Part shown: in pieces, positions 23,690 to 28,979 of the stretch | How positions within the stretch are numbered: position 1 is the stretch's first letter | Layout: the number at the start of each line of letters is the position of its first letter | Assembly: GCA_963706595.1 (NCBI GenBank) | Contig: OY970166.1 | Span: forward strand, 4,864,001 to 4,928,000 | Direction of reading: 5' to 3' | From: an uncultured cyanobacterium | Lineage (GTDB): Bacteria; Cyanobacteriota; Cyanobacteriia; Cyanobacteriales; Nostocaceae | DNA length: 64,000 bases | Notes under the pieces: generated by a model | What the model saw: the letters and a program-made list of their open reading frames with translations, nothing else | The model's database searches: none | What the model was told of the DNA's origin: nothing | Position numbers and translations under genes: made by a program

Positions 23690-25096
23690 TTATCGCCCAA
23701 TTTGCACATCTTCCAGAACCCCCAGAGCATCAGGGATGAGAACAGCAGCCGAGTAATAAGCAGAGACGAGATAGGAAATAATCGCCTTTTCGCTAATGCC
23801 CATAAATCGCACAGACAAGCTCGGTTGATACTCATCCGGAATACCAGTTTTATGTAAACCGATCACACCCTGATCTTCTTCCCCACTCCGAAGCACAAGA
23901 ATAGAGCTAGTTTGGTGATCAGAAATAGGTATCTTATTGCAAGGAAGTAAAGGTACACCCCGCCAAGCCATCACCATCTGTCCATCCAGATCAATATTCT
24001 GTGGATACAGACCCAAGCGATTGCATTCTCGACGAAAAGCCGCAATAGTCCGAGGGTGAGCTAGGAAAAACTTCGACTTTCTCCGACGGGTGAGAAGCTC
24101 GTCAAGGTCATCAGGAGTGGGCGCTCCCGTACGACTGTAGATGCGTTGTTTGAGGTCAGCATTGTGCAGCAACCCGAATTGACGGTTATTGATCAACTCA
24201 TATTCTTGACGTTCCCGTAATGCCTCAATAGTCAACCGCAATTGTTGTTCAGTCTGGTTCATCGGTTCATTGTACAAATCCGCCACCCGACTATGCACCT
24301 GCAACACAGTTTGAGCAACACTCAACTCATATTCACGAGGTGAAAGTTCGTAATCAACAAAAGTGGACGGCAACTCAGTCTCCCCAATATGCCCCGCAGC
24401 CAAATCAATAGAAGCTTCACCGTGCTTATTTTGTGGGATTTCTGCACGACTCCTAAACTGATCAACTTGAGCCTGCAACTCCTCAGACTGGTTGAGCAAC
24501 TCCCGAAACACCTGAGCAGGTAGCGCCAATACAGTACATCGCGTAATAGCCTTAATCGTGAACTTCCAACTGCCTTGTGACTCCAGCAAAACCTGCTCGC
24601 CGAAATAGTCGCCGTCTGCGAGTATCCCCAAATTCGCCGGTTCGTCATACTTACCAGCACGAATCTTTTCTACCCTGCCATGTGCGATCAGAAAAAGCTG
24701 GTCGGCAGACTCACCAGACTGCACTATGATCTCACCAGGTGCAAACTCCTGTTGCACAAACCGACCTGCCAAAGCGCTCAACACCTGGGTGTCCTCAAAT
24801 CCTCGCAGTAATGGCAACTCACAAAGTTCCTGGGGAATCACCTGGACATCAGATCCAGTGTTAGTAAAAGTCAATCGCCCATCACCAACTTTATAAGTCA
24901 ACCGCCGGTTCACCCGATAAGAACCACCTTTCATCTCCACCCACGGCAAAATCTTCAACAACCACCGCGATGTAATTTCCTGCATCTGCGGTGCAGATTT
25001 GGTTGTCGTCGCCAAATTTCTGGCTGCGGCTGTACTCAAACTCAATTGAGGTTGTCCACTCTCAGCATTCAAATCTAAATCATTAGAATACGTCAT
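23690..25096 (-). CDS. Family 2B encapsulin shell protein with cNMP-binding insertion (geosmin operon 'cnb' gene 2)
   Basis: [35 protein letters not shown], cNMP domain (GDYFGE), [29 protein letters not shown]. Confidence 0.9.
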
Positions 25097-25258
25097 TATA
25101 GCATTTCCTAGTTTAATAAATTACACAATTATCTGCGTTTATTTGCGTCCATCTGCGTTTAATTATTACTGCTTGTACCTCACTGGAATGGCAATTGCTA
25201 TCAGAGGTGAAGGTGATCAATTTGAGATTTTAGATTGACCTTCACCTCTTAAGAATAA

Positions 25259-26668
25259 TTAACGCCCGATTTCGACATCTTCCAAGATGCCAAGTGCGTC
25301 AGGTACTAGGACAGCTGCGGAATAGTAGGCTGTGATCAGGTAAGAGATAATCGCCTTCTCACTGATGCCCATGAATCGCACAGACAAACTGGGTTGGTAT
25401 TCATCGGGGATACCAGTTTGATGTAGACCGATCACCCCTTGTTTTTCTACACCAGTGCGGACTAAGAGAATCGAACTAGTGCGGGTATTGGTGATGGGGA
25501 TCTTGTTGGAAGGAAAGATGGGTATTCCACGCCAAGCTGGAACTTGGTGTCCGCCCATGTCAATGCTTTGTGGATAGATGCCCAGGCGGTTACACTCACG
25601 AGCAAAGGCAGCGATCGTGCGGGGATGAGCCAGGAAGAATCCCGGATCTTTCCAGACTGTAGCCAGCAGTTCATCCATGTCATCCGGGGTAGGCGCTCCG
25701 TTGCGAGTGTGGATGCGTTGTTTGAGATCAGCGTTGTGCAGTAACCCAAATTCGCGGTTATTGAGCAACTCATGCTCTTGACGTTCCCGTAATGCCTCAA
25801 TAGTCAGCCGCAGTTGTTGTTCGGTCTGATTCATCGGTTCGTTGTACAAATCAGCTATGCGAGTATGCACTCGTAACACGGTTTGAGCAACGCTTAATTC
25901 ATATTGCCGAGGCGAGAGTTCGTAATCAACAAAAGTTCCTGGTAACTGAGTTTCCCCAATATGTCCTGAAGCCAAATCAATAGATGATTCCCCGGCGGCA
26001 TTCTGTGGCTGATTCAGGCGGACTCGGAACTGCTCAACATGAGTTCGCAACGCCTCCGACTGGTCAATCATCTGCTCAAACGCCTGTTGAGGCAGCGCCA
26101 TTACTGTACATCTGGTAACAGCTGTGAGGGTAAATTCCCAAGTATCCTGCGATCGCACCACAGACTCATCGCCGAAATGGTCTCCGTTGGCTAACACATC
26201 CAAGACGATCGGCTCACCATATTTTCCGAGGCCAATCTTGTTCACCTTACCGTGGGCAATCAATAACACCTGATCAGCCGGTTGACCAATTTCAACAATT
26301 ACATCCCCGGCGGCAAACTCTTGCTGCACAAACTGGTTTGCCAAGGCGCTCAACACCTCAATGTCATCAAAGCCTCGCAGCAATGGTAACTCACAAAGTT
26401 CCTGGGGAATTACCTGTATATCAGCTCCAGTGTTGGTAAAAGTTACCCGCCCGTCACCAACTGCATAACTCAACCGGCGGTTAACTCGATACACACCACC
26501 CTTCGTCTGTACCCACGGCAACAGTTTCAACAACCACCGGGATGTAATTTCCTGCATCTGCGGTGCTGATTTGGTCGTTGTCGCCAAATTACGCGCTGCG
26601 GCTGTACCCAAACTGAGTTGGGGCTGCTGTTCTTCAACATTCAAACCGGAATCATTAGAAAAGGTCAT
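25259..26668 (-). CDS. Family 2B encapsulin shell protein with cNMP-binding insertion (geosmin operon 'cnb' gene 1)
   Basis: Same motifs as its paralogue, but [16 protein letters not shown] where the paralogue has [15 protein letters not shown]. Confidence 0.9.
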
Positions 26669-26708
26669 AAACTTGTTCCTTGTTGTTCTAAATACTAAAA
26701 AAAGAAAT

Positions 26709-28979
26709 TTAATGTCCTAAAAAAGCAGATGAATTACTTGACAAAACACCGACCAAAGATTTGATTCGTGCCGCCGAAGTTCCCAGCCCCGTGGGACCGT
26801 TGATCCCCGGTATTGATGCCGAACTATTACGTAATTCAAATTCTTTATAGCGGTCTACAGTAATGTGCCACTGAAGTACACCGCACATCCATTGCTGTAG
26901 TTTCTCTACGTAACCATACAATTTCTCGCGGGTACTTGTGTCTAAGTTCAAATCGTCAAACAGAACTGGTAATTCTGTGGCGACAATGTTTTGAAACTGG
27001 CACGCTCTAGATGTCATCAAATTGTTGACCACCTCAACGGCCTGGGGCAAATCGCAGTTGAGGAATCGCTGAACGACTAACACACCGTTATTCAGTTCAC
27101 CCTCGAATTCTATTTCTTTCTGGTAAGAGAAGATATCGTTGGTTAAACAGGCGAAATCAGCAGCCGAATTGTCCAATCCGCGCATCGGTCGAGTGCGGTA
27201 AATTTCCGGCGGGATCTCATCGCCTTGAGCTAGTCGAGACAGGCTCATAGTCAGATCCGAACCAAAGGTTTTACGCCGCATCTCAACATAATCTATCGGG
27301 TCGGGAATCCGATTTTGAATCTGGTTAGCCAGTTCCCACAACCAACTGGCGGTCATATCCTCCACAGCACGGCGGAACTGCTGTCGTGCGTTTGCAGACA
27401 TCGGGTCAGCTGTGCGAGACCACAAATCAGCCAAGCCACGTTCCACTGGGTTTGTGGGTAATGGGATGGGGCTGGAGTCCAGAGGCATAAACTCTGAGAG
27501 TCTAGCGTTAAACACTTTCGCGCCAGCCATGTTGCGGCTATGCCCGTAGAGGGCTGGGAAATAATCATCGGCATAGGTTCCCCAAACCAGCCAGCCAGCA
27601 GTCAGATTCAATTCCGAACTGGATGCATGAGGATGAATTAACGCCCCACATAAAGCGACATCGGCAACATCAAATTTGTGGTCGTTCCAGATAAAGGCAT
27701 CATCAAGGCCAGGTAGTGAGTCCAGCATCCCCATCTGACGCGCCCATTCTTTGGAATGCTTCCGTGCAGCATCTAAATGGCTATTCAAAGAGGTAGAGAA
27801 GGGCATATAAAACTTCGGCAGTGTCACTGGTCCCACAGGCTGGTAGGGAACGTGAGTGAAGTTCTTAAACCTTCCTAAACCCAATTTGCTGTATAACCTT
27901 CCCAGATCCGCCGCCGATGTTCCCAGCCCTGTGGGACCGCCTAGAACTTGTGTGGCTGTCGGAGACTTGTCCGATTGCTCGTTCATGTAGCGGCTTGACC
28001 TCATGTGCCACTCGTGACCGCCCGACTGCCAGTCCTGGAGTCCTTTGATGTACAGTAGGACATTCAGGCGAGCTACTGGGTCTAGTCCGTACTCCTCAAA
28101 CAGGGAGGGTAACTCGGTGACGGCGGTGTTCTCAAACTGCTGTAGCCGCGAGGTCAAGAGTTCGTTGGTGAGGTTGGCTGCTGACTGGGTTTTAATATTC
28201 AGGAATCGCTCGAAGACCAACACACAGTTAGCATTTTCGCCTTCATCCTCTACTTCTCTCTGGTAGGAGAACAGGTCATTGCGAAGATGCACTCCATCAG
28301 AAAATGTGTCTTTGAGTACAAGCATCGGCCGGGTTTTGGCGATTTCATCTGGAACCTCCACAAATACAGCGTGTTCAACTAAGTCAGCTGACCACGGCGC
28401 ACCACCAACCTTGCGGCGCATTTCAATGTATTCGATGGGGTTAGCAACTCGATCCTGGCTGATATTGGCAAGTTCCCACAAAGACTCATCTAGGAGGTTT
28501 TTTGTACTTTCAAAGAACCGCATCCGCCATTCCGCAGATTTGGTAAAAGCTGTGCGAGACCACAGGTCAGCCAAGCCTAACTCGACTGGGTTAGTTGGTT
28601 CTGGGGGGTTTTCGACTGGGTATATGGGCATGAATGCCAGCAGCCGGTCGAGGTAGTCTTTTGCACCAGCCATATCGCGGCTGCGCTTATAGATTTCCAG
28701 AAAATGATCGTCGAAAAAGAACACCCAAACATACCAGTCCGTAACTAGATTAAGCTCCGTTTCTGGCGCATCTGGATGGGTATAGGAGCAAAGCAGGGCG
28801 TAGTCGTGGGCATCGAATGTGTGTTCGTCCCAGATAGGGGAACTTTCGGCTTTTTCTTGTGCGTCAAGTATTCCCATATCGTAAGCCCAAGCCTTACTAT
28901 GCACTCGCGCCGCCTCTAGGTTGGGGTTCAACCGAGCCGGCCAAGGCATATAAAATTCTGGCAGTTCAAAGGGTTGCAT
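26709..28979 (-). CDS. geoA: Geosmin (germacradienol) synthase
   Basis: [20 protein letters not shown]-domain DDHFLE and [10 protein letters not shown]-domain DDYFP and NDIFSYQKE; followed by two cnb genes. Confidence 0.96.

What the first reader, a model, noticed from the sequence alone, without database searches (positions are those of the whole stretch)
23690..28979. Geosmin synthase nanocompartment: two distinct Family 2B encapsulin shells and two cargo-loading-like motifs in GeoA
Seen: both 'cnb' genes have the Family 2 encapsulin scaffold with a cNMP-binding insertion and differ in one loop (ATVWKDPG vs TRRRKSK). GeoA has [10 protein letters not shown] twice outside its catalytic domains: in the linker (27909-27938) and the C-terminal tail (26769-26798). 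Established: Streptomyces Family 2B shells package terpene cyclases via GPxGLGT-like motifs, and two-component 2B shells exist. Inference: cyanobacterial geosmin is made inside a mixed, possibly ligand-regulated shell; the adjacent prenyltransferase lacks the motif and would act outside.
Basis: partly seen in the sequence, partly recalled or inferred. Interest (0 to 1): 0.8.

Follow-up and report, generated by a model that had tools for sequence, protein, structure and literature searches.

The report
Geosmin shell cassette with FPP synthase
This cyanobacterial gene cassette encodes the earthy-smell enzyme geosmin synthase and two protein-shell genes that likely package it, as already shown in Myxococcus, plus an extra copy of the carotenoid-precursor enzyme CrtE with one pocket change predicted to make geosmin's 15-carbon substrate.

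Summary
geoA and two Family 2B encapsulin genes pass curated cut-offs. [10 protein letters not shown] occurs twice in GeoA and the pattern occurs nowhere else in the genome. Fazal et al. 2026 (PMC13739066) showed this three-gene system in Myxococcus xanthus: mixed shell, two redundant loading peptides, no cAMP binding. The TVWK/RRRK loop (2025) and the motif (2021) are also in print. Both shell proteins have Trp in place of the cAMP-binding Arg, so cAMP/cGMP control is unlikely. The addition here is the fourth gene, a CrtE paralogue with Phe instead of Met five residues before the first aspartate-rich motif. An aromatic residue there turns a cyanobacterial CrtE into an FPP synthase (Feng 2020). 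It follows geoA-enc1-enc2 in 10 of 12 genomes that carry it, and all 12 also keep a Met-type CrtE. It groups with accessory CrtEs of tolypodiol-like clusters. The four genes form one 7-kb block missing from 10 of 10 congeners. This scan noted both the operon and this paralogue earlier on other DNA. No enzyme or shell was tested here.

The parts
26709..28979 (-). geoA, two-domain geosmin synthase (756 aa), predicted shell cargo
   Evidence: PF19086 twice; NF041168 1256 bits, cut-off 1200; metal-binding motifs in both domains; 68% identical to the Myxococcus vastator GeoA in L033
27909..27938 (-). cargo-loading peptide 1, [10 protein letters not shown], in the inter-domain linker (aa 348-357)
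   Evidence: matches published CLP1
26769..26798 (-). cargo-loading peptide 2, [10 protein letters not shown](R), in the C-terminal tail (aa 728-737)
   Evidence: matches published CLP2
25259..26668 (-). enc1, Family 2B encapsulin shell protein, Enc1 type; CBD Trp177 at 26138-26140
   Evidence: NF041163 788 bits; best solved match 9BJE, E 4e-210; Trp177
25649..25660 (-). diagnostic motif 1 of Enc1 (TVWK, aa 337-340)
   Evidence: same as Sl-Enc1 T337VWK340
23690..25096 (-). enc2, Family 2B encapsulin shell protein, Enc2 type; CBD Trp177 at 24566-24568
   Evidence: NF041163 787.5 bits
24077..24088 (-). diagnostic motif 1 of Enc2 (RRRK, aa 337-340)
   Evidence: same as Sl-Enc2 R340RRK343
22398..23303 (-). 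accessory CrtE paralogue (301 aa from the ATG), predicted FPP synthase; no loading peptide
   Evidence: NF045685 CrtE 533 bits (cut-off 460), NF045485 FPP synthase 372 (cut-off 275), NF041169 cargo prenyltransferase 267 (cut-off 450, not met); 65% identical to the housekeeping CrtE of the same genome
23049..23051 (-). Phe85, fifth residue before the first aspartate-rich motif ([14 protein letters not shown]); Met in housekeeping CrtE
22368..29330 (.). approximate extent of the 7-kb four-gene block that congeners lack; their two flanks abut

Best explanation
This is a four-gene geosmin cassette in which GeoA is likely loaded through its two [10 protein letters not shown] peptides into a likely mixed Enc1/Enc2 Family 2B shell, while the downstream CrtE paralogue is predicted to make FPP in the cytosol as its substrate. 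Shown here: the genes, the motifs, family membership, co-occurrence and the shared presence or absence of all four genes. Inferred from M. xanthus: a T=1, 60-subunit shell with both protomers mixed at random; peptides bound at the inner three-fold pockets, either one sufficient; FPP entering and geosmin leaving through the large two-fold pores; GeoA protected from linker cleavage and germacradienol partly retained, raising geosmin yield. Inferred from mutagenesis of a related CrtE: Phe85 blocks the chain tunnel after C15, so the cell gets an FPP source separate from its GGPP-making housekeeping CrtE. The outer cyclic-nucleotide-binding-fold domains are predicted not to bind cAMP.
For: Family cut-offs met. 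Motif unique to geoA in the genome. The same three-gene order and motifs were tested in M. xanthus. geoA-enc1-enc2 in that order in 21 of 24 cyanobacterial-type loci; two end at a contig edge and one is rearranged. Trp at the Arg position in both shells and in 59 of 59 cyanobacterial shell proteins aligned. Phe-type CrtE motif in 11 of 251 genomes of the window's family; 10 of these 11 hold geoA, against 43 of 251 overall. With L030 added, 10 of 12 have it directly after enc2, and 12 of 12 also have a Met-type CrtE. An aromatic residue at Met87 of Synechococcus 7002 CrtE gives FPP as final product. (F/Y)X3H before a seven-residue motif is the type II FPP synthase signature. The block is absent as a unit in 10 of 10 congeners.
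Against: No cyanobacterial geosmin shell was tested in the papers I read, and nothing was tested here. 33 of 43 geoA-holding genomes lack the Phe-type gene, so it is not required. Two of 12 Phe-type genes stand away from geoA (G543, G430), and G430 had no geoA match. Feng 2020 names the mutants M87F/S88Y in its abstract but M87Y/S88F in its results, so the exact Phe mutant may not be the one assayed. NCBIfam still scores the protein highest as CrtE. Which protomer assembles alone differs between the two studied systems (Enc1 in M. xanthus, Enc2 in S. lydicus) and cannot be predicted here. This Enc1 has Gln255 where 27 of 29 relatives have the Glu of the closed-pore contact.
Confidence: 0.72

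Rival explanations
1. The shell and cargo reading holds, but the fourth gene is a redundant GGPP synthase, or a mixed-product enzyme, that travels with the cluster without a special role.
For: Highest NCBIfam score is CrtE. Synechocystis CrtE already releases FPP (abstract passage). Most geoA genomes lack the gene. Its nearest relatives are Met-type.
Against: Phe is fixed in 34 of the 120 closest homologues, including the top 29. It is linked to geoA in 10 of 12 genomes. An aromatic residue at this position is shown to stop the chain at C15.
Confidence: 0.15
2. Enc1 and Enc2 form separate single-component shells, or only one of them assembles, so GeoA is encapsulated but the shell is not mixed.
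For: In both studied pairs one protomer forms shells alone. The CBD regions here are only 61% identical.
Against: In both studied pairs the two protomers co-assembled when co-expressed. The pair here carries the same diagnostic motifs and is 80% identical in the C-terminal shell part.
Confidence: 0.08
3. The two cnb genes are cyclic-nucleotide-responsive regulators, or the shell is gated by cAMP or cGMP.
For: PF00027 hit. Older annotation as Crp/Fnr-type regulators. Open and closed pore states exist in mixed M. xanthus shells.
Against: Only weak CRP scores (29-34 bits, cut-off 266) against 788 bits for the shell family. The phosphate-binding Arg is Trp in both. No cAMP binding in the S. griseus or M. 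xanthus shells. cGMP was not mentioned as tested in the passages I read.
Confidence: 0.05

Closest known systems
Myxococcus xanthus GeoA / MxEnc1 / MxEnc2 two-component Family 2B encapsulin (Fazal, Dutcher, Andreas, Giessen 2026, PMC13739066)
   Same: Gene order geoA-enc1-enc2; two GP(N/T)GLGTSAAR peptides in linker and tail; CBD-bearing shell pair. Against the M. vastator proxy L033: GeoA 68%, Enc1 68%, Enc2 63% identical; N-arm Arg24 maps to Arg26 in both shells.
   Different: Cyanobacterial host. A fourth gene, the Phe-type CrtE, follows enc2; none was found in L033. Enc1 has Gln where Mx Enc1 has Glu253.
Streptomyces lydicus two-component shell Sl-Enc1/Sl-Enc2 (PMC12407261; PDB 9BJE, 9BIX)
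   Different: Xylulose-kinase-type operon with no native cargo determined; there Enc2, not Enc1, assembles alone.
Streptomyces griseus Enc (EshA) with 2-MIB synthase (PMC11550324; PDB 9BHU)
   Same: Family 2B shell with terpene-cyclase cargo; CBD Trp176 equals Trp177 here; no cAMP binding.
   Different: One shell protein; single-domain cyclase loaded through an N-terminal disordered domain.
Cyanobacterial CrtE, type II GGPP synthase (Synechococcus 7002, PDB 6SXL; S. elongatus and Synechocystis, PDB 7MXZ-7MY7; PMC7261888, PMC9796789)
   Same: Best solved matches of the fourth gene; same seven-residue DDLPAMD motif; above the NF045685 cut-off.
   Different: Phe instead of Met at position -5; second copy beside the housekeeping gene; belongs to an accessory lineage whose Met-type members sit in tolypodiol-like clusters.

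Membership tests
Family 2B encapsulin shell protein | Family 2 HK97-type shell domain (PF19307 / NF041163) | tested here: met
   458 and 465 bits PF19307; 788 bits NF041163, cut-off 400
Family 2B encapsulin shell protein | Inserted cNMP-binding-fold domain | tested here: met
   PF00027 at aa 116-203 in both
Family 2B encapsulin shell protein | Self-assembly into an icosahedral shell | not testable with these tools
   Inferred from 9BJE, 9BHU, 9BIX and M. xanthus
Two-component Family 2B system | Adjacent Enc1 and Enc2 with diagnostic motif 1 (TVWK / RRRK) | tested here: met
Two-component Family 2B system | Co-assembly into mixed shells | not testable with these tools
   Shown only for M. xanthus and S. 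lydicus
Encapsulin-cargo geosmin synthase (NF041168) | Two terpene-synthase domains with metal-binding motifs | tested here: met
Encapsulin-cargo geosmin synthase (NF041168) | [15 protein letters not shown] peptide in linker and C-terminal tail | tested here: met
   consensus published in PMC8346489
Encapsulin-cargo geosmin synthase (NF041168) | Converts FPP to geosmin | not testable with these tools
   Inferred from homology
Canonical cAMP-binding domain (CAP / PKA type) | Arg in the phosphate-binding cassette | tested here: not met
   Trp177 in both, equal to Sg Trp176; 59 of 59 relatives Trp
Type II GGPP synthase (CrtE) | (M/A)S-X2-H before the first aspartate-rich motif | tested here: not met
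   F-S-L-I-H in the locus gene, M-S-L-I-H in the housekeeping gene; rule from PMC9796789 Table 1
Type II FPP synthase | (F/Y)-X3-H before a seven-residue DDxxxxD motif | tested here: met
   [12 protein letters not shown]; NF045485 above cut-off
Type II FPP synthase | FPP as main product | not testable with these tools
   Inferred from the Met87 aromatic mutant
Type II FPP synthase | Descent from the bacterial IspA lineage | tested here: not met
   Nested inside cyanobacterial CrtE, apart from the non-cyanobacterial Tyr-type outgroup rows; it works like an FPP synthase by prediction but is a CrtE by descent
Encapsulin-cargo polyprenyl transferase (NF041169) | Disordered N-terminal domain of 50-100 residues; score above cut-off | tested here: not met
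   301 aa, no extension against the 309-aa housekeeping CrtE; 267 bits, cut-off 450; feature from PMC8346489

The most novel reading that the evidence does not exclude
Heterocystous cyanobacteria evolved a dedicated FPP synthase by taking an accessory CrtE from meroditerpenoid (tolypodiol-like) clusters, changing one chain-length residue from Met to Phe, and joining it to the geosmin nanocompartment as a self-supplying 7-kb cassette that is gained or lost as a unit. It is a natural version of the engineered CrtE mutant, in a group generally described as having a single short-chain prenyltransferase.
Probability: 0.62. Interest if true: 0.45.

Novelty: new member of a known kind. Interest (0 to 1): 0.32.

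Why it matters
Geosmin is a main cause of earthy off-flavour in drinking water, and cyanobacteria are major producers. The compartment itself is now a published mechanism, so this locus extends it to a cyanobacterium and offers an untested system to check it in. The part I did not find in print is the predicted FPP synthase. Cyanobacteria are generally described as having one short-chain prenyltransferase that makes mainly GGPP, and how they supply shorter chains is stated as an open question (PMC9796789). A natural Met-to-Phe CrtE paralogue tied to geosmin genes would answer it for some strains, could mark high producers, and would give a native enzyme for sesquiterpene engineering. One enzyme assay tests it.

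Tried and rejected
Expression: the look-up of sequencing runs (RNA) listed no holder; no evidence either way. Metagenome scan with a Phe/Tyr motif pattern: 80 loci examined, best identity to the query 58%, none with geoA or shell genes; the pattern was too general, and 20 of the loci served only as tree outgroup. Plasmid collection, tblastn at E 1e-100: no match. Promoter and terminator scan: 4 promoter-like sites against 10.1 in shuffles, 7 terminator-like against 6.5; nothing above chance, so co-transcription is not shown. Two residue counts used a wrong column (regex; column 178) and were replaced. Recent duplication of the housekeeping crtE as origin of the paralogue: rejected by AU test, p 0.0009; three rows were added to that group after seeing the tree, and the model was LG+G4 without mixture. 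Strict monophyly of all Phe-type rows: one branch at SH-aLRT 89 in the quick tree, but 17 of 18 rows at 91/90 in the careful tree, so a single origin is likely, not shown. No structure or complex prediction was run: solved homologues already cover these proteins, so a pass would follow from likeness to them.
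Full report
Observation. The minus strand carries geoA (26709-28979), enc1 (25259-26668), enc2 (23690-25096) and a prenyltransferase (22398-23303), then a zinc-binding dehydrogenase; the nif genes begin on the plus strand at 30340 (nif names read by eye). Both stated stretches translate to [10 protein letters not shown], at GeoA residues 348 and 728, outside the two catalytic domains. The pattern [GA]PxGLGT occurs twice in all six frames of the genome, both times in geoA. 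Both shell genes pass the Family 2B cut-off and GeoA passes the cargo-cyclase cut-off; they are the only two PF19307 genes in the genome. The shells are 74% identical, least so in the CBD region (61%), so 'differ in one loop' understates the difference.

The headline is published. PMC13739066 (parts 1-4 of 7 read, abstract to conclusion; supplement searched for five terms) shows that M. xanthus GeoA is cargo of a mixed MxEnc1/MxEnc2 T=1 shell. Its two GP(N/T)GLGTSAAR peptides are redundant: about 30% less loading when one is lost, about 20% of wild type when both are impaired. Encapsulation raises geosmin titre and prevents proteolysis, mixed shells show a closed pore class, and no cAMP binding was seen. 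It counts 299 GeoA encapsulin systems, 65% with two shell genes, and says most cyanobacterial geoA genes sit beside shell genes. The repeated motif was described in 2021 (PMC8346489, passages). The TVWK/RRRK loop is 'diagnostic motif 1' of PMC12407261 (passages). A cyanobacterial 2-MIB study links Cnb proteins to intracellular compartments (PMC12159092, abstract only).

Conservation. Of 61 loci, 24 are cyanobacterial or cyanobacteria-like (L015 is labelled otherwise but is 87% identical). 21 of 24 show geoA followed by two shell genes, two end at a contig edge, and one is rearranged. Where both genes were typed, the TVWK-type gene lay next to geoA. Among 62 GeoA-like ORFs a strict motif pattern found two copies in 30, three in 3, one in 19 and none in 10 (variants are missed).

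Ligand. In cGMP-dependent kinase the cassette reads FGERALLYDEPRSA; Enc2 reads [14 protein letters not shown]. Residue 177 is Trp in both shells, aligns with Trp176 of S. griseus Enc, and is Trp in 59 of 59 cyanobacterial shell proteins aligned. PMC11550324 (passages) identifies this Arg-to-Trp change and found no cAMP binding or effect. Cyclic-nucleotide gating is therefore unlikely; another ligand is possible.

The fourth gene. The genome has three PF00348 genes: a long-chain type (33% identical), a housekeeping CrtE with HTMSLIHDD, and the locus gene with HTFSLIHDD; the last two are 65% identical. In Synechococcus 7002 CrtE an aromatic residue at Met87 shifts the product from GGPP to FPP (PMC7261888, passages; abstract says M87F, results say M87Y). 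PMC9796789 (passages) gives (F/Y)X3H as the type II FPP synthase signature and says cyanobacteria generally have one such enzyme; Feng notes one reported exception, T. elongatus. Of the 120 closest homologues 34 have Phe, 1 Trp and 85 Met; the nearest named one is from Nodularia spumigena at 94%.

Distribution. The Phe-type motif was found in 4 of 401 genomes across the phylum, all in the window's family, and in 11 of 251 genomes of that family (Nostocaceae-like, inferred from named homologues). A protein search of the family sample (again 251 genomes) ranked those same 11 first; the other 15 loci were Met-type. geoA-like matches at E 1e-150 occur in 43 of 251, including three partial matches and two 52-53% paralogues. 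So the Phe type is in 10 of 43 geoA genomes and 1 of 208 others (Fisher p 8e-8; kin are not independent, so this overstates). Adding L030, the gene follows enc2 directly in 10 of 12 genomes. G543 has geoA on another contig; G430 has a single-domain terpene synthase beside a P450 elsewhere. All 12 have a second, Met-type CrtE. Against a general role: 33 of 43 geoA genomes lack it.

Origin. In both trees the Phe-type proteins lie inside cyanobacterial CrtE and apart from the housekeeping copies of the same genomes. They share a 100/100 branch with Met-type accessory CrtEs, and holding them with the housekeeping copies is rejected (caveats under Tried and rejected). I fetched the surroundings of 6 accessory loci. 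L250 holds UbiA, chorismate lyase, DXS, IspG, CrtE, a Pyr4-like cyclase, a Rieske protein, IspH and a P450, the order of the putative tolypodiol cluster in PMC8073705 (passages). The other five show similar genes by eye (only one of their ORFs was scanned). The direction Met to Phe is inferred from the nesting.

Cassette. In 8 of 10 congeners the dehydrogenase-side flank (to about 22365) and the nifB-side flank (from 29331) lie within 90-500 bases of each other. The other two lack the dehydrogenase match, but the kinase lies about 550 bases from the nifB flank match. None of the ten has a geoA or Phe-type match. The four genes therefore come and go together. Gain or loss is undecided: repeats common in this genus lie between the cassette genes, which suggests some residence time.

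Not in print, by my searches: searches returned no paper describing this paralogue; passages of PMC7251104, PMC12271159 and PMC4390852 do not mention it. The library lacks most subscription journals. Fazal et al. did sort GeoA neighbourhoods by presence of a polyprenyl transferase, so a geoA-enc-enc-prenyltransferase layout may be among their operon types; their figures were not visible. This scan's earlier notes report the operon and the Phe-type CrtE on other genomes. I had written the lead down before looking, but a repeat is not independent evidence.

Verdict. The remaining value lies in the predicted FPP synthase and the four-gene cassette. Interest 0.32.

Noticed in passing
L017:7986-10343, L018:7986-10340, L031:7953-10343: Some 785-796-aa cyanobacterial GeoA proteins carry three loading-peptide-like motifs, two of them in a longer C-terminal tail.
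   Followed up: no
L007:13790-14848: A CrtE-like gene directly after enc2 in Lyngbya sp. CCAP 1446/10 has a degenerate first aspartate-rich motif (HTKSLLHNDLTGMD), possibly inactive or a non-catalytic partner.
   Followed up: no
L010:4345-10274, L012:4667-9320: Microcoleus loci have two geoA-like genes in tandem (60% and 78-80% identical to the window's); L009-L011 have a Met-type crtE 0.5-7 kb upstream on the opposite strand, and L012 has two Enc2-type genes on the opposite strand.
   Followed up: no
window 25904-25906 (Enc1 residue 255): Gln where 27 of 29 cyanobacterial Enc1 and 31 of 31 Enc2 proteins have Glu, the residue that contacts the N-arm Arg in the closed pore of the M. xanthus shell.
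   Followed up: partly
window about 23357-23462, 23473-23618 and 25096-25201: Three intergenic elements of 100-150 bases inside the cassette have many copies in this genome and in congeners.
   Followed up: no
window 22398-28979: GC at third codon positions is 0.47-0.53 in geoA and the shell genes but 0.33 in the prenyltransferase (housekeeping crtE 0.40), hinting at different histories.
   Followed up: no
window 29331-30340: The cassette sits immediately beside the conserved region upstream of nifB, with geoA pointing away from it; no regulatory link was tested.
   Followed up: no
window 15173-19390: A 1405-aa NACHT-domain protein with a long array of near-identical HEAT repeats of about 31 residues.
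   Followed up: partly
L246-L251: Several genomes of this family hold tolypodiol-like clusters with their own MEP-pathway genes, UbiA, a cyclase and an accessory CrtE; G538 has three accessory-type CrtE matches.
   Followed up: partly
P0030: One homologue has Trp at the chain-length position instead of Met or Phe.
   Followed up: no
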